From the human T2T-CHM13v2.0 reference genome, Homo sapiens, in the NCBI RefSeq assembly GCF_009914755.1, contig NC_060935.1: DNA of 64,000 nt; one strand, 5' to 3'. The translations under genes and the position numbers were made by a program. Of this stretch, positions 47,544-64,000 are shown piece after piece. Position 1 is the first letter of the stretch. Each line of letters opens with the position of its first letter. The notes under the pieces were generated by a model. It had not been told where the DNA came from and ran no database searches. It saw only the letters and a list, made by a program, of their open reading frames with translations.

Positions 47544-54032
<6,489 letters not shown>

Positions 54033-55046
54033 CAATTTTTCACTGATACAATGCTCTTGCTGCATTTTTAGTAGTACTACATTTCATCAACATTTTTGTT
54101 TGGTTCAACTTCTTTTTATTTTTGTTTAAGCATTTAATTGTTATGCCAAAGAAAAAAATGTAGAATTTGAATGAGTATAAACATATCTATAACCTTCTTT
54201 ATATATTTAAAGAATATACATTCTATTTTTTTCTGATTTGCTTATATTATCTTCAACATACTCTTTATGAATGTCATTTGTAGATCAACTATTATATTAC
54301 TATTTAAAGCTATTTATTTTTATTGGAATATAGGAAAGTGAGTTATCTTAATTGAAGCAATAGTGTGTATAAAAATAGCAGCCCATAAGTAATAGAACAA
54401 GTCTTAACATCTATCATTAAAGCATTGTGCCACTTGCTGTAAACCAAAAATAAAATTGTAAGTCTCCCAAATAATTAAATGGATCCCTCCTCTTGGCGAA
54501 GGGCATTCCAAAGTAAGCCTGAAAAACTAGTTCTGGCCATCTTGGGAAGGATATACCACGTTATAATCTGTTCTTTTTGTAATTCAGGCACAACTGACCA
54601 TCATTAACATCAAAATAGAGATCTTACAAGTGAAAGACTCTTTGTGGCAATAAGACACCAAACTACAGCCTAATTCTCATATGCCATCACAAGACAGATA
54701 GCAGGTCTGGAAAGAAATTGAAGTATTTACCCACAAATTGACACATTTTGAAATTGCCCTGCAAAGCTGTCTTGTGAAGAAAATATACACTCTTTAGAGA
54801 ATTCTCTTCACTTTTCAAGTGTTTTCCTGATCCAGGAGAGATTAGCTAATGGTCTGGCACCTTTTTAGATCTGATCAGAGATATTTACCATGTATTCTCT
54901 CTGAAGCCTGCTACATGGAAGCTTCATCTGCATAATAAGAACCTTTGTCTCCACAATCCCTTATCTTAACCCAGATACTCCTTTCTATTGGTTCCAGGTC
55001 TTTGGATAATAACTTAACTCTTTCAAACAATTGCCAATCAGAAAGT

Positions 55047-56041
55047 TAAAACCACCTTTACAAAAAATATAACTGAGAAAATTATTACAATGAAAGAGAT
55101 ATAACCTAACTGACTCCACCTTGCTTCAACCTCCAAGCTGTCCTTCATTCTTGGGCATAGGCTGAGCTAACATTGGGAGAAACTTAGTTTATAGTTTAAC
55201 CTTAAAACAAAGCTGATAACAGCCCTTTCCCAAAACAAACCCCCTTTTTGCCAGAGGATTAGACTGTCTTTGCAGGACTAACAAATTAGCCACAAGGTTA
55301 GAGATTATGGTTTAGGAGTCATGCAGCTGGAGACTACAAGATTCTAAACCTCCCCAATTGCTCCTAGGTATAACATCACTGTTGTTTTGACTCCCTATGA
55401 TTCTATCTCCAACCTGACCAATCAACACTCCCCACTCCCCAGATTCCTACCTGCCAAATTATCCCTAAAAACCCCTGATATGGTTTGGATCTGTGTCCTC
55501 CCCCAAATCTCATGTTAAATTGTAATCCCCAATGCTGAAGCTGTGGCCTGGCAGGAGGTGATTGAATCACAGGGACAGATGTCCCCATAGGTGCTGTTCT
55601 GTTGATGATGAGTGAGTTCTTTTGAGATCTGGTCATTTCACGGTGTGTGGCACCTCCTCGCTCTCCCTCTTGCTGTTGCTCCCAACATGTGAGATGCCTC
55701 AATCCCCCTTTGCCTTCTGCCTTGATTGTAAGTTCCTTGAGACCTCCCCAAAAGCTGACGCTGCCACGCTTCCTGTTCAGCCTACAGAACGATGATCCAA
55801 TTAGACCTTTTTTAAAAAAATAAATTACCCATTCTCAGGTATTTCTTTATAGCAATGCAAAAACACATGAATACAACCCTGATCCCTGAATTTTCATGGT
55901 GACTGATTTGAGTAATAATAAAATTCTGGTCTCTTGTACAGCCGGCTCTGTGTGAATTAAACTTTCTTTATTGCAATTTGCTGTCTTGATAAATCAGCTC
56001 TATCAGGAGAGTGGGCAAGGAGAACTTGTTGTGCAGTTGTA
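55047..56041 (+). mobile_element. LTR8-like ERV1 LTR nested in MER4
   Basis: aaaccacctttacaaaaaatataactgagaaaatt start; ends gtgggcaagg..gcagttgta; near-TSD aagt/aaat. Confidence 0.85.
55476..55875 (+). mobile_element. MST (MSTA-like) MaLR LTR nested in LTR8
   Basis: tgatatggtttggatctgtgtcc...gaataca; 5-bp TSD acccc/accct. Confidence 0.92.
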
Positions 56042-56656
56042 AAATCTTTGAATCCACCAAAAAGTGGCCCCTGCCCTTCTAGTTGTCCTGTCTTTCCAGA
56101 CAGAAACAATACATACCTTGTATATATTGATTGATATCTGCCTGAAACTTCTGTCTCCCTAAAATGTATAAAATCAAGCTGTAATGCAATCACCTTAGGC
56201 ACATGTTCTCAGGACCTCCTTGGGCTCTGTCACAGGTCATGGTCTTCACATTTGCCTCAGAATAAATCTCTTCGAACGTTTTACAGACTTTGACTCTTTT
56301 TCATTGACAAAGCTTTTTGGATATGGTAAAATTTTCTACTTGCCTTGTGTTGTTTTGCATAAAGCCAATGTGCTGTTTTAAATAAAGAGAGGGTTTTTTT
56401 TTTCCTTTTGTTTCTAGATGCTATTTTTACTTCCTTGCCTATTGACACTGGCTAAGACCTCCAGTAGTGAGGGAGAGAAAAAGTCCCACATATTGAGCCT
56501 AGAAAGTAATTCTAGAATCTGCTCCGGGAGGTTGGGGGGAAGCAGATGAATAATAAAGTTCTGCAACAGAAGTTTTTAGAAATTTCAGAGGTATTAATTA
56601 GAACCTTGACTCTAGTCTTTTCAAAGTCTGAGAAATGGCAATGAGGGACAGCCTAG

Positions 56657-57184
56657 TGAAGAAATTAAAACATTTTACCCCCCAAATATATTTCTTTGAT
56701 ATATTTTGAAATGGCTGCTTCTTGGCCAGTAGGTAGAAATGGCCTCACAAAGCTGTCTTAAGTGGGGAAAATTTGCATCTCTAGAGAATCTCCATTAATC
56801 CAGCCATGCCCCCTTCCCTTTCTGTTCCTTTTCCCAGATCCAGCAGAAATTGAGAGTCTGAAACCTTTAAAAGTCTGAAAAGAAATATTTATCATATGTT
56901 CTCTCTGAGGAAGTTTTCATCTACATAGCAAGGCCACCTTTGCTAGCAATCCTTTTCTCTCGCTTCAAATAACTTGTTTTACCAGCATCTAAGCCCCCAT
57001 TCTTTCTATAACCTAAAAATGGTATATACATTTCTGTAACTCATTGGGAAGTTGGGTCTTCGTTCTAAAGCTCCTGTGTATGCACCTTAAATAAATTTGT
57101 ATACCTCTTCTCCTATTACTCAATCTGCCTCATGTCAGTGATTCTTAGTGAACCTTTAGGGTTCCAAGAACAAATGGCCCCACA
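56657..57184 (+). mobile_element. MER34/MER39-like ERV1 solo LTR
   Basis: tgaagaaattaaaacattttacccccaaatatatttc start; AATAAA near 57090; ends ..ccccaca; TSD ctag/ttag. Confidence 0.7.
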
Positions 57185-58589
57185 TTAGCACATTTTACTT
57201 TCAAGTCCCAGTGATACTCTTATCAGCAGATAATTTTAATAGTTGTGATTGCTCAGCATGGCCTTGAGCATTACAAATGAAAGTACTATTACTCTCTTTT
57301 CCCTAGAACACCTTTCTCAAGGTCATTTTCACACATTGCCCTTAGGTTCTACCTAAATAACTTGAGCCTGTCTCTTCTAATACTTGGATTTGGGAGTTTG
57401 GCTTTCCTGGATGTATGCCATTCAAGCAATATTACTGTTGCAATTAGAGTAGTTTCATTTTCTCCAACACCTATAGAAGGTTATTATTTTCAAAAATGCC
57501 CTGGTAATTGTTTTAATGGAACATGAGTGAATTGAGAAGATCTCCACTCCTAACCCTTTAAAAGTTCTAAAATACAAGACAAAATATTTAACACAAACAT
57601 ATATTAATAAGTTTATATGTAAAACAGCTTGCAATCAGTTTGTATACTACTATATCCACATGCTTTCCAATATCAAATTTTAAACATCACACTTGAAATA
57701 TTAAAACATTTGAAAAGCAGCAGCAAACAAGTCAGAAAAATTGCAATATAATCATTACCTAATGGTATAATGATGTCTCACAACATCAGTAAAAGCATTC
57801 ACTGTGTACATACTATTCACTTGGTTGACTTTCAGCTATTGTTTGACTAAAATTGTTTACTCTAAATTCCTCAATCTCTCATATATTCATTTCAAAATGT
57901 TCTTAAGTTTTTAAGTAAATATCTTCTCTTTCTTTGATGTAGATTTGAGACATTGCCATAGTTCCTCCTTTCTTTTAGCAGCACAATATAAACTGTTCTC
58001 TGACCTACTCAGCACAACTTTATTATTTTCTAATCCCACATGTCTTTGTGATAGTGTATTGCAAAAATATTTTTTGTGTCACAAATTCATGTCACACTTG
58101 TGATAAGTTAATGATACAAAAGTGATCACCAATTGATTCTGAATGTTTTATAAATAATGCATCCAAAAGTAGTTTACCATAACAAGTATTTCCCTTAGAC
58201 CTATGAAAACTTGCCCAGTTTTGAGAAAGCCAGTGCTTTGGAGTGACTTCCTCAAAATTTTCTATATCACCCTTTGATGCCTGGAACCAACACAGGAATA
58301 TCATTCTTCACTATGCAGAGCACCTTAAACCTAAACCAGAACCCACATGGGACTCGGTCCTTATTTCTGTTTTATGGTATATTTTGAAAGAAATTTAAGG
58401 TTTGGCTTATAAACCTTCCTGAAGAAAAGATCCTACCCTACTTTCAAAGCTGTAACAATGCCCAGATCCAGGTCAACTACAAATCAGATTGATTTAGTGC
58501 CCAACTCCAGTGTTGTTATAAAATAAGAGGCACATATTTTTTAGAAGATATATATTTCTAGTTAGAACTCTACTGTTTTCTTGTACCAA

Positions 58590-59180
58590 GGTCCTTCATA
58601 GAATCAAACATTACAAGACAAAGAATAAGCAAATAATGTGCAGTGTTTGAGAGGCAAAATAATCAATAGAAACAAACTCAAAGTTATCCCAAATGTTGGA
58701 ATAATCAGATATAATTATTACAAATTTTTAAAGAATCTTCAGGAACACATGCAGCATGCACGCAAGATAGGAAGAATCATCAAAGAGGTGGAAGGGAAAT
58801 AAATGAAACCAAGGAAGCTGAAATTTTAAAAAATTAAATGTGATATTTGAAATAAAATAGTGTATTTATATACAACAGAGAAAATAATCTAGTAACTTAA
58901 AGCTGAGTCAGTAAAACATACACAAACTAAAATACAAAGGTAAATAGAGTGAAAATAGCATTTGTGATTTCTAGGTAAATAACAAAGGTTTTAGCATCCG
59001 TGTAATTGGAGACTCAGAAGGACAAGAGAGAGCATGAGGTAGGAAAATATTTGCTGAGATACTTGCGAAAATTGATAAAACGCAACTTACAGATCCAACA
59101 AGCTCAGCAAAACCCAACTTGGATAAACAAATGAAAAAATAAGATACCTAGAAACACAGTCAACTACTGAGAATAAGAAG
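58590..59180 (+). mobile_element. Old L1M ORF1-region relic
   Basis: gtaattggagactcagaaggacaagagaga, cagatccaacaagctcagcaaaacccaa motifs. Confidence 0.65.
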
Positions 59181-59430
59181 ATGAAGGAGGAGAGTTGGAG
59201 GAGAAGAAAGAAGAGAAGGAGGAAGGTGGAGGGAAGGAGAGGAGGAAGAAGAAAGCAGCCTAAGAATATGGCATGTGGAATACAAGGGAGTAAAGGCAGA
59301 AATGATGTTAAGAAATGTCATTTTAAAATGTTAAAAGTAAAATAAAGAAAGATGGAAGAAAATAAAGAAGGAAAGAAAGGAAATAAGAAAGAAAGGGAAG
59401 AAGAAAACATGGGAGAGAAAAAGGAGATAA
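59175..59430. repeat. GA-rich low-complexity tracts
   Basis: Direct reading. Confidence 0.8.
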
Positions 59431-59557
59431 GCCCATGAGAAATAAAACGCAATATATTATGACTATAGGTTTCTTCACCAGCATTCAGACGGAGGCTTCT
59501 AACTTTTAATTACATACATTATCCTACATCTGCAGGTTACCCAAATGAAACTTCAAA

Positions 59558-59640
59558 CATTCCCTTACCAACGAACCTGTTAATGCATTTCCTCACCAAC
59601 TAATCTGTTAATGCATTCCCTCACCAACTAACCTGTTAAA
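59558..59640. repeat. 28-bp minisatellite, 3 copies
   Basis: cattcccttaccaacgaacctgttaatg / catttcctcaccaactaatctgttaatg / cattccctcaccaactaacctgttaaa. Confidence 0.92.
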
Positions 59641-60124
59641 ACAGGTTATTTTGCAAAGGAGGGGCAAGAACTTTTACTAATTGCCTCCATATTTCCAATG
59701 ACCAACTGGAAGAGACTCTCTCTGGCTTCCTGCACCTACTATCAATAACTTATCAAGGGGTAAAGCCCACTAAGAATGAGACTGCCTCAGTGTAAGAACT
59801 TTACTTGGTGCTAATTTCTCCTTTTATATCTGGATTCTCTTCCATTATTTTTAGTCTCTCTGTTATCTGGGGGGAAACATCTTTGGAAAGAAAAGTCATT
59901 GATCCCTGCACTGGGAGTTGTCAGGACACTTTCTCCTAGGGGCTAGGATAATCAGAAAAGTGCCATGTTTTCCAACAATTATTTCAAATTCTGAATCATA
60001 GAGGGACCCTCTAACTTAAGTGAGAGCTGCAAGCAGCTGAAGTGTATTGGCCCCCATTGGTGGCCTGCAGTACAACCAAACTCGCAGGGCAGCAGTCCTT
60101 GGCTTAGGTCACTGGACCTCCAGG

Positions 60125-60340
60125 ACTCACCTGGTGCTGGGCACCAGTGCCTGCAGGAGAGGCAGCAGGTAGCACGCTGGGCTGAATCTCATGTGTTGCC
60201 TGCCGGGGGCCTCCTTCCATCCCTCTCTGGCTCTCCAGCCTCTTCCTGGCCCTTTCACTTCTCAGTGTCCAGTTAACTAAGGGACGTCTACTGAAGGTTG
60301 GGAGCAGGAAATATATGGAGAAGCGAGGCGAGTCCAGACC
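60125..60340 (-). pseudogene. LUZP2: Duplicated (unprocessed) copy of LUZP2 exon 1: 5'UTR-like region, 62-nt coding part (60192-60131) and splice donor
   Basis: Minus strand ATG at 60192 gives MRFSPACYLLPLLQALVPST-R, versus recalled LUZP2 MKFSPAHYLLPLLPALVLSTR (16/20 identical), followed by CAG|GTGAGT in phase 2. Confidence 0.8.
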
Positions 60341-60413
60341 ACACATACACATACGCATATGCATACACATATGCATACACATACATGCACATACATATAC
60401 ACATACATATACA
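60340..60413. repeat. (CATA/CACATA)n simple repeat
   Basis: Direct reading. Confidence 0.9.
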
Positions 60414-60707
60414 GATGTAACTCCACCCTCTTGCAAAGCTTTATTATGAAGAGGAAACATATCTGCTAATCCTTCATTTACTGATTTTAATGGGGTTGAA
60501 GTAATCGATATGTATACATAATAGAAATGGTGTATTTTAAACATCATGACATCTAACCAGCCAAGCAGTAATATTTGCAAACTGGACAGCACTCTCTTAG
60601 TTGATGGTAAAAGTGACACAAATTTAAGTAGGCATAGTCAACTCATATAAACTGCATGTAATTTGGTAAGAGAAAATGAAGAATGAAAGAGTAGTCTGAC
60701 TCTCAAC

Positions 60708-60747
60708 TTACAAAATAGCATTTCATTTTACAAAATAGCATTTCATT
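60708..60747. repeat. Perfect 20-bp tandem duplication ttacaaaatagcatttcatt
   Basis: Direct reading. Confidence 0.92.
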
Positions 60748-61483
60748 TTGCTCTTGCTAGACTTTTCTAATGAAAGCTTTTCAGCTCAGTTAAAAATTAA
60801 TCATTTAAGATGCATTCTCTACAATGCCATATGACTATTTTCTAATAGGTATATTTACACATACATATTATATGCCATTCTAATTTGTAAATACCTTTTG
60901 TTGGCACAACATGTTTACATTCATGATCTCATGTGCCCATCACAGAAGTTGAGAACACCAAGCATTTCTATCATTATTTTTTTTTTTTCCAGAGGAATAA
61001 ATGGTCACAAAGAGGTTAATTTGCTGAGTCACTTAGTTACTAATAAAATGGAGATGGGTGTTCAAAGTTGGTTTGCATCACTCCAAAACCCATTGTGATA
61101 AAACTTCCTCTTTTCAAACCACGGAAAGAGAAAATCTTTGTCTTAATTCAAATTTCATTACTGTCTTCTAGACATATCAGTGTAAAGTAAAAAAATCTTC
61201 TTCATCCTTATCAATTTAGAAAAACAGTCAAAATAATCTTTGTTTAGACATATTCAAGTGAAATCAGTCCCGTGTATGTATTTGTATTTTATATACAAAC
61301 ATAATCTCAAGTTTAATTTACCTGTTCATTGTCTTTAAGTGGAAAAAAGTTATCTATCTTAGAAGGGATAGATGTATTAGCAAACTATATCTTGAGAAAT
61401 AAACCTTATAGTTTTGGAGACATATGTAGCATTTAAGAACTACATCTTGAATGATGCTATGTTTCATCCTCTTATCAAAAATC

Positions 61484-61811
<328 letters not shown>

Positions 61812-63059
61812 TAATTCCCCAAAACATCCTCTCTTCTTTGTCACGGTGAAATTCAAATCCAGAAGTTGATTTCTTGGGTTTTGGAGAGTCAATATATAAT
61901 TTTTAAAGATCCAGCAGTGCAAATAGTAGGCACACTTAGCACAGGGCAATTCACACGGACTCCAAACCACGGTAGTCTTTGATAAGAACAAACAATTTCA
62001 CTACACTCTCTCTCACAGTTCAGGTTTGTTTTCTTCCTGGATTTCCTTTCTTCTCTTCTCTTTTAAACTTGTGTTCCCTGAGGTTCAGTCTTTTTTTTTT
62101 TTTTTTAACCAAAGTGAGCTTATTATCATTTTTATGGCTTGACCTCTACCATTATAAGATAACTCCCATACATGTGTCCCTTTCCAAGCATTCTTTTGAG
62201 TATCTACAAGGCAAACTGGATCGCACTGAAGCTCAAGAATATTATGTAAGTTGCCTGAGGACATACAGCTAGTAGTAGGTAGCCGAGATAGGGCTTGAAC
62301 TCAAATCAACGATTTCCTATTTCTCTCTGATCATCTTTCTGTATTTCCTGGAATCCCCAACTCCTAAGACATCTGATTTTTAAACCTGAGAGTCATTCGT
62401 CCCTTATTACTGTTTCTTCCTCTTTTCTCATGTCATCAAGACCTGTTGATTTTCCCTTATATATATTTATTTAATCCAACCTCCCAGTCCCACCTCCATC
62501 CTTATCAGAACCCTAGAATAATAACTCATTACCATTGTCTATAAACTGAACTCCTTTCCCTATGGTGGATTTTTATTAAATACATGCCCCACAGTAATTT
62601 ATGTAAACAAAAATTCTCCTTATTAGTTTAAAAGTCCTGGACTGAGGGCCCTACTTATCTTTACAATGTCTCCTCTCTTTCTATTATTCTCTTCCATGTT
62701 ATACTTACACATATAGATATTTATGCTTTTAAAACATATATTCAGCATAAAACTAGACATAAATTGATTGTAAAGGTGAAGAAATGGAACTTGAGTTACT
62801 GTAACAGAATTCTGTCATTATATGTAACACATGGGGCTTTTACTATTCAGGCATGTTATGCCCTGTGTAATTGTTCTTTAGGATCTAGTCTAATGGATTC
62901 CAAATATGTGCTTCCTATCTCCCTCAGCAGGAGTAAGCAGAGGGTAATGTGGGAATGCACAGAGTTTAAAAAGCCTCAAAGTCAGAGAAGACCTCTCTGA
63001 AGAAGAAACATTTGATTATATTATCTAACAAGAAAAACAGATTTCCATATTTTATTTTA

Positions 63060-63340
63060 TTGGTTACCTAATGCTTTTCACATATAAAGTCTAATTTAGT
63101 CTTCACCACTACTTTTTGTGGAGTAGGAATATTTATCTCAGTTTTACAGGTAAAAACAAATAAGGCTCTTGAATGTTACACAAGTTGCCCAAGGAAATGT
63201 GCTAGTGAGTAGCTGAGACAACTTGAACTCAAATTAACATTAAAAATGAGAAAATTGAGATCCAGTAATTGGCTCAAGGTCAACAGTGGTAGGAGAATAT
63301 TCCATTTCATGTCTTGATTTCCTGTCTAGTCCCTTATAAT
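63060..63340 (-). mobile_element. MIR relics (two adjacent cores)
   Basis: cagttttacaggtaaaaac..aagttgcccaagg; atgagaaaattgaga..ctcaaggtcaacag. Confidence 0.55.
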
Positions 63341-64000
63341 TCTTCTTCCTTTTGTTTTTCTGTATATCACACTGTCCCCAGCAATAAATTAACATCTTAC
63401 TTTGTACACATGATTTAAGATACAGCCCTATCTAATCCAAGTAAACATTTAGAGATCAAAACTAATCTCCTGACAATTTTTAATTAGACTAATATTTATC
63501 AAATGTGATGTGTGCCAAGTATTGGAGCTGTAACTGCTGTGAGTAACCAGACCATACAATCAAGGCACTCTCCAACTTGTCTAAGGTTCAAATCTAAATT
63601 TTTGCATTACAAAATTTTGAAGCACTATTTTACCAATTTCCTGGTAGTTATATTGCCTATTTTTCACTTTTATTTTTAGTGTACTATCTTGGTTTTATTT
63701 AAATGTAGTTTCTTATAGAAAAACCTACATTGTTGTACTTCCACTGAAGAGAATATTGACACAGGCTATTTTATTTCTTCATTGGTTGGGGGCAGTCATG
63801 CACTTGCCTCGGGGTTTTCTGTTATTCTTCCATGAAACCCAGAAATAAAAGCATACATGCAATTATTGATTGTGCGTTTACTCCAAAGGCTCAGACAAAA
63901 AAAACTAAGAGGTTATAATGCGATTGACAAAGCCATATGTTTCCTGAAATCAGATCTTCCACACTTGCATCTATACGTGATACTGAAATAAAGTAAAACT

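What the first reader, a model, noticed from the sequence alone, without database searches (positions are those of the whole stretch)
60050..60420. Orphan minus-strand copy of the LUZP2 first exon with start codon, signal-peptide frame and splice donor intact
Seen in sequence: a locally GC-rich patch in AT-rich DNA. On the minus strand it reads ATG(60192)-MRFSPACYLLPLLQALVPST-AG|GTGAGT, i.e. 62 coding nt ending in a perfect consensus donor, with a purine-rich leader and a (TG/TATG)n repeat upstream. The ORF track misses it. Established knowledge (recalled): LUZP2 begins MKFSPAHYLLPLLPALVLSTR, with its first intron after c.62. Retention of the donor means a DNA-level duplication of promoter plus exon 1, not a retrocopy. 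Only about 6 CpG remain in ~290 bp, suggesting a methylated, decayed island, and two changes (P>Q, L>P) weaken the hydrophobic core. Inference: a relic promoter/exon module that could still launch a spliced minus-strand lncRNA or micro-ORF running antisense across the L1 and THAP12 pseudogene. I found no LUZP2 exon 2 match in this window. Alternatively, if the window is from a non-human primate, this could be the true LUZP2 exon 1.
Basis: partly seen in the sequence, partly recalled or inferred. Interest (0 to 1): 0.8.

Follow-up and report, generated by a model that had tools for sequence, protein, structure and literature searches.

The report
Ancient promoterless relic of LUZP2 exon 1
This is a very old, decayed and inverted partial copy of the start of the LUZP2 gene that has lost its promoter, one of three such relics in the gene desert upstream of LUZP2, and it is most likely inert.

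Summary
On the minus strand, ATG at 60192 opens a 62-nt frame (MRFSPACYLLPLLQALVPST) ending in CAG|GTGAGT. It matches 54 of 62 nt of the true LUZP2 exon 1 coding part, which lies 1.008 Mb away on the plus strand.

It is not an isolated exon. It sits in an inverted, collinear, heavily deleted copy of about 35 kb of the LUZP2 5' region, at 58-74% identity, spanning window 57194 to beyond 64000.

It is one of three relics; the others are at chr11:23.338 Mb and 23.855 Mb. No relics of exons 2-5 were found.

The window copy has lost 1.6 kb holding the CpG-island promoter, the start site and the first 114 nt of exon 1. A TG-rich microsatellite sits at the junction.

Its divergence fits neutral decay of this copy alone, and RefSeq has no transcript here.

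The 23.855 Mb sister copy keeps a CpG island, and its homologous donor is the exact end of LINC02726 exon 1.

Verdict: an unannotated, ancient, unprocessed pseudogene fragment, ordinary in kind. The exon-1 core is unexpectedly conserved between the two sister relics.

The parts
57194..64000 (-). Inverted, collinear, deletion-compacted relic of the LUZP2 5' region. It corresponds to LUZP2 24611477-24646110 and continues past the window end, to chr11:23625782 against LUZP2 and to chr11:23630658 against the 23.855 Mb copy.
   Evidence: Collinear BLAST blocks at 58-74% identity with E-values from 1e-6 to 1e-68. The same order is seen against the other two relics.
60432..61249 (-). Homologue of DNA about 1.5 to 2.3 kb upstream of the LUZP2 start site (24625776-24626608).
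   Evidence: 60% identity over 862 columns, E 1e-36. The pairwise MAFFT alignment agrees.
60271..60431 (.). Junction left where about 1.6 kb was lost (LUZP2 24626609-24628227: CpG island, start site, first 114 nt of exon 1). It contains the (ACACAT)n microsatellite at 60341-60413.
   Evidence: The BLAST blocks stop at 60432 and resume at 60270. No aligned run lies between them. Tandem Repeats Finder reports the microsatellite. The missing sequence is present in the 23.855 Mb and 23.338 Mb copies.
60193..60270 (-). Remnant of the 5'UTR, corresponding to the last 77 nt of the 191-nt LUZP2 leader.
   Evidence: Identity to LUZP2 is 68% over 78 columns.
60131..60192 (-). Homologue of the exon 1 coding part: ATG plus 62 nt in an open frame, MRFSPACYLLPLLQALVPST.
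   Evidence: 54 of 62 nt are identical to LUZP2. There are four amino-acid changes: K2R, H7C, P14Q and L18P.
60125..60133 (-). Splice donor CAG|GTGAGT at the homologous position.
   Evidence: The 17-nt stretch across the donor is invariant in all four copies. The 9-mer occurs twice in the window against 0.57 expected.
59881..60130 (-). Homologue of proximal intron 1. The first 80 nt or so belong to the better-conserved core.
   Evidence: It lies in the 76% BLAST block. The first 120 intron columns are 76% identical to LUZP2.
59400..59880 (-). More decayed intron 1 homologue.
   Evidence: Four-way MAFFT gives 58% identity to LUZP2. A short BLAST block covers 59457-59510.
57194..58116 (-). Two distal intron 1 blocks (LUZP2 24634245-24634659 and 24645662-24646110) brought close by deletions.
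   Evidence: Window 57660-58025 also matches the 23.338 Mb relic at 67%.
61473..61778 (-). Later insertion of a high-copy repeat of about 300 bp, Alu-like, inside the relic block.
   Evidence: It is masked in the annotation table. Dozens of genome copies show 83-87% identity, and 40 of 4705 candidates were scored. Sub-threshold SRP RNA matches cover it. The name Alu is my inference.

Best explanation
Window 60050-60420 is the exon 1 core of an ancient, unprocessed, partial duplicate of the 5' end of LUZP2. A block holding upstream DNA, the CpG-island promoter, exon 1 and the proximal part of intron 1 was copied within chr11p14 at least three times. By divergence this happened long before primates, probably before or around the placental radiation; that date is an inference.

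The window copy is inverted and lies 1.008 Mb upstream of LUZP2. Deletions have shrunk about 35 kb of parental sequence to about 8.6 kb. One of them removed 1.6 kb containing the promoter, the start site and the first 114 nt of exon 1.

What remains is the last 77 nt of the leader, the ATG, the 62-nt signal-peptide frame and the donor. These have drifted at a rate compatible with no constraint on this copy. Their good match to LUZP2 arises mainly because LUZP2 itself hardly changed there.

The intact ATG, frame and donor are survival by luck in a short segment. The copy most likely does nothing. The identity, extent, copy number and promoter loss are shown directly. The age and the inertness are inferred.
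For: - Position and match. The true LUZP2 exon 1 is at chr11:24628114-24628366 on the plus strand. The coding parts share 54 of 62 nt.
- Genome searches. The window copy as query, and then LUZP2 exon 1 as query, each found only chr11 places: LUZP2 itself, 23.855 Mb (+), 23.620 Mb (-, this window) and 23.338 Mb (-). One search scored 4 of 4 candidates and returned 5 matches in those four places. One search scored 4 of 4 candidates and returned 4 matches.
- Extent. Eight collinear inverted blocks link LUZP2 24611477-24646110 to chr11:23625782-23617194. The same block order holds against the two other relics.
- Promoter loss. Homology stops at window 60432 (LUZP2 24626608) and resumes at 60270 (LUZP2 24628228). 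The missing stretch survives in the other relics, at 24627768 onward in the 23.855 Mb copy and up to 24627708 in the 23.338 Mb copy. So it was lost here, not gained in LUZP2.
- CpG content. Window 60100-60900 has 7 CpG in 801 bp, observed/expected 0.23. The LUZP2 promoter has 66 CpG (0.86) and the 23.855 Mb copy has 46 CpG (0.69).
- No other exons. Exons 2, 3, 4 and 5 have no copies elsewhere. The window has none of exons 2-12 apart from interspersed repeats.
- Neutral decay. In the 163-column core, the window copy has 23 private changes, against 10, 8 and 2 for the 23.855 Mb copy, the 23.338 Mb copy and LUZP2. It differs from LUZP2 at 31 of 163 core columns and at 362 of 734 flank columns. 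That fits half the flank rate, meaning only this copy drifting (P = 0.054; 0.10 and 0.24 against the other relics).
- Coding changes. My hand count from the sequences gives about 5.5 amino-acid-changing and 2.5 silent changes, which shows no protein-level constraint.
- Annotation. RefSeq has no transcript or functional element at the site.
Against: - The maximum-likelihood branch of the window copy is three times shorter in the core than in the flank (0.22 against 0.67). If the flank alignment is trusted, the core evolved more slowly than its surroundings even here. That leaves room for a past period of constraint or for an old gene conversion.
- The ATG, the open frame and a perfect donor all survive.
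- The sister relic at 23.855 Mb shows that this kind of module can work as a lncRNA first-exon donor.
- Absence from RefSeq does not show absence of transcription. No CAGE, long-read or junction data could be consulted, and other gene catalogues were not available.
Confidence: 0.8

Rival explanations
1. One reading: a relic promoter plus exon module that still launches a spliced minus-strand lncRNA or a micro-ORF transcript across the L1 and THAP12P4.
For: The ATG, the 20-codon frame and the consensus donor are intact. The homologous donor of the 23.855 Mb copy is the annotated end of LINC02726 exon 1.
Against: The parental promoter and start site are deleted. There is no CpG island (observed/expected 0.23-0.27). 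RefSeq has no transcript here. This is the most decayed of the three relics, with 23 private core changes against 10 and 8.
Confidence: 0.1
2. The roughly 160-180 nt core (end of leader, exon, donor, first 80 nt of intron) is kept in this copy too. The cause would be selection on a DNA- or RNA-level element, or gene conversion from LUZP2, as seems to hold for the two sister relics.
For: The two sister relics differ from each other at only 23 of 163 core columns against 397 of 734 flank columns (P = 6e-5 even at half the flank rate). The ratio of core to flank branch length is 0.33 for the window copy, 0.16 and 0.15 for the sisters and 0.12 for LUZP2.
Against: For the window copy the simple counts fit neutral drift of this copy alone (P = 0.05-0.24). 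The flank branch lengths are probably inflated by misalignment near saturation. No known RNA family matches the core. A recalled CTCF-type consensus is not matched there (4 window hits against 4.2 expected, none in the intron patch).
Confidence: 0.12
3. A recent (primate or human) segmental duplication of LUZP2 exon 1.
For: None beyond the good match of the 62-nt coding part (87%).
Against: The flanks are only 58-61% identical, and the exon-containing block is 74-76%. That is far below the 90% used to define segmental duplications. The Alu-like insert at 61473-61778 interrupts the block and has no counterpart in the homologous interval of LUZP2.
Confidence: 0.01
4. A processed retrocopy, the true LUZP2 exon 1, or a chance match.
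For: None.
Against: Homology continues through the donor into intron 1 and into upstream DNA. The true exon is annotated 1.008 Mb away. The whole-genome E-value is 5e-59.
Confidence: 0.01

Closest known systems
Unprocessed (duplicated) pseudogene fragment
   Same: It was copied at the DNA level with promoter, exon and intron sequence. It keeps the exon-intron boundary, cannot encode the protein because only exon 1 is present, and shows CpG decay and deletions.
   Different: It is much older and more diverged than most annotated examples (58-76% identity). It is reduced to a single exon and is not annotated in RefSeq. One search of the paper library for 'LUZP2P' returned a single paper on gene expression in rat ganglia; I saw only its listing.
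LINC02726 first exon (the sister relic at chr11:23.855 Mb)
   Same: It descends from the same ancestral LUZP2 5' block and has the same ATG, frame and donor.
   Different: The sister keeps the promoter homologue as a CpG island (46 CpG in 801 bp). It lies on the same strand as LUZP2, and its donor is used in two Gnomon lncRNA models. The window copy is inverted, promoterless, CpG-poor and unannotated.
Human segmental duplications (at least 1 kb at 90% identity or more; definition recalled)
   Same: An intrachromosomal copy, many kilobases long, of unique DNA, with both direct and inverted members.
   Different: Identity is far below the threshold, so it would not appear in segmental-duplication catalogues.
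lncRNAs born from decayed protein-coding genes (recalled example: XIST from Lnx3)
   Same: A relic coding exon and donor are reused by a non-coding transcript. This is shown here only for the sister copy.
   Different: There is no evidence that the window copy is transcribed.
Arrays of alternative signal-peptide first exons spliced to common exons (recalled examples: UGT1A, protocadherins)
   Same: Several copies of a first exon with its own promoter lie upstream of one gene.
   Different: Two of the three relics, including this one, are inverted and cannot splice to LUZP2 exon 2. One relic has an 11-nt frame-breaking deletion.

Membership tests
Unprocessed duplicated pseudogene fragment of LUZP2 | Significant homology to the parent exon | tested here: met
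   54 of 62 nt in the coding part. 76% over about 345 nt, E 5e-59 genome-wide.
Unprocessed duplicated pseudogene fragment of LUZP2 | Homology extends into intron and flanking non-exonic DNA, in parental order | tested here: met
   Eight collinear blocks cover LUZP2 24611477-24646110. The four-way alignment runs through the donor into intron 1.
Unprocessed duplicated pseudogene fragment of LUZP2 | A separate, intact parent gene exists | tested here: met
   LUZP2 NM_001009909.4 has exon 1 at chr11:24628114-24628366.
Unprocessed duplicated pseudogene fragment of LUZP2 | Cannot encode the parent protein | tested here: met
   Exons 2-5 have no other copy in the genome. The window has no exon 2-12 match apart from repeats.
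Processed retrocopy | Introns absent, with exon 1 joined to exon 2 | tested here: not met
   The donor and intron 1 homologue follow the exon.
Segmental duplication (catalogue definition, recalled) | At least 90% identity over at least 1 kb | tested here: not met
   58-74% identity in the blocks.
CpG-island promoter | High CpG observed/expected ratio and GC content over several hundred bp (thresholds recalled: about 0.6 and 0.5) | tested here: not met
   Window 60100-60900: GC 0.39, 7 CpG, ratio 0.23. Window 60050-60420: ratio 0.27.
Active lncRNA first exon (as in LINC02726) | An annotated or observed transcript using the donor | tested here: inconclusive
   RefSeq has none here. Expression, CAGE and junction data were not available.
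Known RNA family (Rfam) | A match at or above the family's gathering score | tested here: not met
   None of the 11 listed matches in 57000-64000 reaches its gathering score. Of these, 7 are microRNA-family matches on the TG microsatellite, with mir-297 best at 51.4 bits against a gathering score of 90.

The most novel reading that the evidence does not exclude
The LUZP2 desert may be littered with very old partial LUZP2 copies. Three 5' modules lie upstream, and relics of exon 9 and the 3'UTR lie downstream. The roughly 160-nt exon 1 core (end of leader, ATG, signal-peptide exon, donor, first 80 nt of intron) is held three- to seven-fold more conserved than its flanks, even between the two sister relics.

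That pattern would mean the core is a reusable functional unit, such as a first-exon and donor module that seeds lncRNAs like LINC02726, or an alternative LUZP2 first exon. Alternatively, it could mean that long-range gene conversion from LUZP2 keeps refreshing the core. On this reading the window copy would be a member that lost its promoter and was then released from constraint.
Probability: 0.25. Interest if true: 0.55.

Novelty: new member of a known kind. Interest (0 to 1): 0.3.

Why it matters
The window copy itself matters little. It is an unannotated gene fragment that could mislead gene finders and read mapping around LUZP2 exon 1.

The family context is of more use. It shows that part of the 3.4-Mb desert around LUZP2 descends from old partial duplications of the gene. 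It gives LINC02726 a clear origin in a duplicated LUZP2 promoter and first exon. It also offers a natural three-way comparison of one promoter, exon and donor module: one copy kept a CpG island and is spliced, one carries a frame-breaking deletion, and one lost its promoter. That comparison could help test what keeps a first-exon module conserved after its coding role is gone.

Tried and rejected
- A first genome search with 3 kb around the site was swamped by the Alu-like repeat at 61473-61778. Only 40 of 4705 candidates were scored, and all were repeat hits apart from the self match. I repeated it without the repeat.
- The first exon 2 query was likewise swamped by a repeat in its first 156 nt. 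I repeated it from base 170.
- Rfam gave only sub-threshold matches: 7 to microRNA families and 2 to other families on or around the TG microsatellite, and 2 SRP matches on the Alu-like repeat. I rejected them as artefacts.
- A recalled CTCF-type consensus gave 4 hits at up to 2 mismatches against 4.2 expected. None lay in the conserved intron patch, so I rejected that lead.
- Literature. 'LINC02726' is held by 2 papers, both incidental by their listings. 'LUZP2' + 'duplication' + 'exon 1' gave 3 unrelated papers. 'LUZP2' + 'segmental duplication' is held by 11 papers, 9 of them listed, and none is on point by title or abstract start. 'LUZP2P' gave 1 unrelated paper. I read only one passage of one preprint (10.1101/2025.11.10.687682). 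It concerns polymorphism inside LUZP2, not these copies. Supplements were not consulted.
- Dating with orthologues was not possible, because no other vertebrate genome was on hand. SignalP was not available, so I computed only a Kyte-Doolittle mean.
- The wider searches with a distal intron block and an upstream block of LUZP2 found only the chr11 relics plus unrelated repeats. The window copy's 59% upstream match, seen in my local BLAST, is below that tool's reach.

Full report
**Observation.** On the minus strand the window reads ATG at 60192, then 62 nt of open frame, then CAG|GTGAGT with the intron starting at 60130. The peptide is MRFSPACYLLPLLQALVPST. Without splicing the frame runs on to R and a stop. 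The window is chr11:23560001-23624000. RefSeq places LUZP2 at chr11:24628114-25216277 on the plus strand, with exon 1 at 24628114-24628366 and its coding part at 24628305-24628366. That coding part reads MKFSPAHYLLPLLPALVLST and is followed by GTGAGT, and 54 of 62 nt are identical to the window copy. The GC-rich patch, the 6 CpG in 60050-60340 and the TG-type microsatellite at 60341-60413 are also real. The true LUZP2 exon 1 exists 1.008 Mb away on the other strand, so this is a copy and not the gene.

**How far the homology goes.** A local BLAST of window 50000-64000 plus the next 10 kb against 30 kb around LUZP2 exon 1 gave a 346-nt match at 76% across the exon (window 59881-60224). With repeat masking and relaxed scoring against 50 kb of LUZP2 5' sequence, the match became one of eight collinear inverted blocks. 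They pair as follows (LUZP2 with chr11 position of the window copy):
- 24611477-24612935 with 23625782-23624391
- 24613431 with 23623995
- 24623249 with 23622705
- 24625386 with 23621926
- 24625776-24626608 with 23621249-23620432
- 24628228-24628616 with 23620270-23619881
- 24634245-24634659 with 23618116-23617678
- 24645662-24646110 with 23617643-23617194

About 35 kb of LUZP2 5' sequence thus corresponds to about 8.6 kb here, at 58-74% identity. Four further hits in that list are out of order and look like interspersed repeats. The exon is therefore not an orphan. It is embedded in a deletion-compacted relic that spans window 57194 to beyond the window end.

**Copy number.** A whole-genome search with window 59440-60330 scored 4 of 4 candidates and returned 5 matches, all on chr11. 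They were the query itself, LUZP2 (76%), 23855052-23855222 on the plus strand (79%) with a weak second piece nearby, and 23337954-23338077 on the minus strand (77%). The reciprocal search with LUZP2 exon 1 plus flanks also scored 4 of 4 candidates and returned the same four places. Both other relics are collinear with LUZP2 over tens of kilobases: 23850383-23874145, and 23344956-23325126 inverted. They are also collinear with the window copy. Searches with two further LUZP2 blocks found only these chr11 relics plus unrelated repeats.

**Which part of the gene was copied.** Exon 2 with its flanks has no other copy in the genome (1 of 1 candidate was the query itself). The same holds for exon 4 and exon 5 (one unrelated 47-nt hit). 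Exon 3's only other hits fall on an intronic repeat scattered over many chromosomes. None of exons 2-12 matches the window apart from Alu-like and other repeats. The duplicated unit was therefore the 5' flank, the promoter, exon 1 and the proximal part of intron 1. Separately, the exon 9 region has diverged copies downstream of LUZP2 at chr11:25583148-25583524 (plus strand, 70%) and 26130422-26130800 (minus strand, 68%). A 3'UTR piece has a copy at 25614331-25614489 (plus strand, 73%).

**The promoter is gone from this copy.** Between the blocks that end at window 60432 (LUZP2 24626608) and start at window 60270 (LUZP2 24628228), LUZP2 has 1,619 nt. That stretch contains its CpG island (66 CpG in 801 bp, observed/expected 0.86), the RefSeq start site at 24628114 and the first 114 nt of exon 1. 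The window has only 161 nt there, including the microsatellite. The missing sequence is present in the other relics. The 23.855 Mb copy aligns from LUZP2 24627768 onward, and the 23.338 Mb copy aligns up to 24627708. The ancestral unit therefore carried the promoter, and the window copy lost it. Window 60100-60900 has 7 CpG in 801 bp (ratio 0.23). The 23.855 Mb copy still has 46 CpG in 801 bp (ratio 0.69).

**The sister copy is in use.** The last exonic base of the 23.855 Mb copy, found from the invariant donor string, is chr11:23855188. That is exactly the end of exon 1 in both Gnomon models of LINC02726, whose exon 1 is 23853290-23855188. Its 20-codon frame is intact: MKFSPVPYLLPLLPALVLST. 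The 23.338 Mb copy has an 11-nt deletion in the frame. RefSeq lists no transcript or functional element at the window copy. The only gene in the window is THAP12P4.

**Rates.** I aligned the four copies and counted only columns where all four have a base. The core comprises 38 nt of leader, the 62 coding nt and 80 nt of intron, giving 163 columns. Of these, 113 are invariant. Private changes number 23 in the window copy, 10 in the 23.855 Mb copy, 8 in the 23.338 Mb copy and 2 in LUZP2. The 734 flank columns have 165 invariant. Maximum-likelihood branch lengths for core against flank are:
- window copy: 0.22 against 0.67
- 23.855 Mb copy: 0.094 against 0.60
- 23.338 Mb copy: 0.071 against 0.47
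- LUZP2: 0.025 against 0.21

The two sister relics differ from each other at 23 of 163 core columns and at 397 of 734 flank columns. That is too few core differences even if only one of them were drifting (P = 6e-5). The window copy differs from LUZP2 at 31 of 163 core columns against 362 of 734 flank columns. It differs from the two sisters at 38 and 37 of 163. All three figures fit half the flank rate, meaning drift of the window copy alone (P = 0.054, 0.10 and 0.24).

Two caveats apply. The flank alignment is near saturation and probably inflates the flank distances. The half-rate test is crude. The likelihood ratio of 0.33 leaves room for some past constraint or an old conversion in the window copy. 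My hand count of the eight coding differences from LUZP2, using the sequences, is about 5.5 amino-acid-changing to 2.5 silent, which shows no protein-level constraint. Four residues differ (K2R, H7C, P14Q, L18P), and the hydrophobic core drops from a mean Kyte-Doolittle value of 2.21 to 1.55.

**Age (inference).** Flank blocks are about 58-61% identical to LUZP2, which is roughly 0.57 substitutions per site after a Jukes-Cantor correction by my own arithmetic. With recalled mammalian neutral rates of about 1.2-2.2e-9 per site per year and two lineages, this gives on the order of 130-240 million years. That is older than the human-mouse split and far older than primates. No orthologues could be examined, so this remains a prediction.

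**Other checks.** None of the 11 Rfam matches in 57000-64000 reaches its gathering score. Nine lie on or around the TG microsatellite, 7 of them to microRNA families, and two are SRP matches on the Alu-like repeat. A recalled CTCF-type consensus is at chance level in the window and absent from the conserved intron patch. The donor 9-mer occurs twice in the window against 0.57 expected. The paper searches found nothing on these copies. I saw only listings and one passage, and supplements were closed.

**Conclusion.** The finding is a real and correctly read homology. Its meaning is an ancient, inverted, promoterless, unprocessed fragment of LUZP2 that is most likely inert. It is new as an annotation but ordinary in kind. 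The part that remains unexplained lies mostly outside the window: the exon 1 core is conserved between the two sister relics, and one of them has become the first exon and donor of LINC02726.

Noticed in passing
L017 and L020-L021, chr11:23854450-23855250 (outside the window): The sister relic keeps a CpG island (46 CpG in 801 bp, observed/expected 0.69) and an intact LUZP2-like 20-codon frame. Its homologous donor is exactly the end of LINC02726 exon 1 (23855188). It lies on the same strand as LUZP2, 773 kb upstream, so it could also serve as an alternative LUZP2 first exon.
   Followed up: partly
L018, chr11:23337423-23338124, minus strand (outside the window): A third relic of LUZP2 exon 1, with its last exonic base at 23338039. 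It has an 11-nt deletion in the frame, yet the rest of the core is 86-94% identical to LUZP2. It lies about 11 kb beyond the 3' end of LINC02718.
   Followed up: partly
chr11:25583148-25583524 (+), 26130422-26130800 (-), 25614331-25614489 (+) (outside the window): Diverged copies (68-73%) of the LUZP2 exon 9 region and of a 3'UTR piece lie downstream of LUZP2, around and within LINC02699. The gene is thus flanked by 5' relics upstream and 3' relics downstream.
   Followed up: partly
window 47551-47613, 47768-47880, 48408-48569 (+): These stretches are 90%, 79% and 82% identical, in the same order, to chr11:23855900-23856924, which includes LINC02726 exon 2 (23855902-23855960). The orientation does not fit the inverted ancient block. 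It is probably a shared interspersed repeat that supplies that exon.
   Followed up: no
window 60341-60413: An (ACACAT)n microsatellite gives sub-threshold Rfam matches to 7 microRNA families, including mir-297, mir-466 and mir-1277. The best is 51.4 bits against a gathering score of 90. This is a repeat artefact, not a microRNA gene.
   Followed up: yes
window 51938-54028: An L1-like masked repeat matches DNA upstream of LUZP2 (24617763-24619818) at 84-85% over 1.9 kb, with an adjacent inverted piece. Identity is higher than in the ancient block and the match is not collinear with it, so these are independent repeat copies.
   Followed up: no
L016, LUZP2 intron 1, about +330 to +400 from the donor: A second short patch of intron 1 is well kept between LUZP2 and the 23.338 Mb relic (52 of 61 columns at alignment columns 900-980). 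LUZP2's own proximal intron has the shortest flank branch (0.21 against 0.47-0.67). This hints at conserved non-coding elements there.
   Followed up: no
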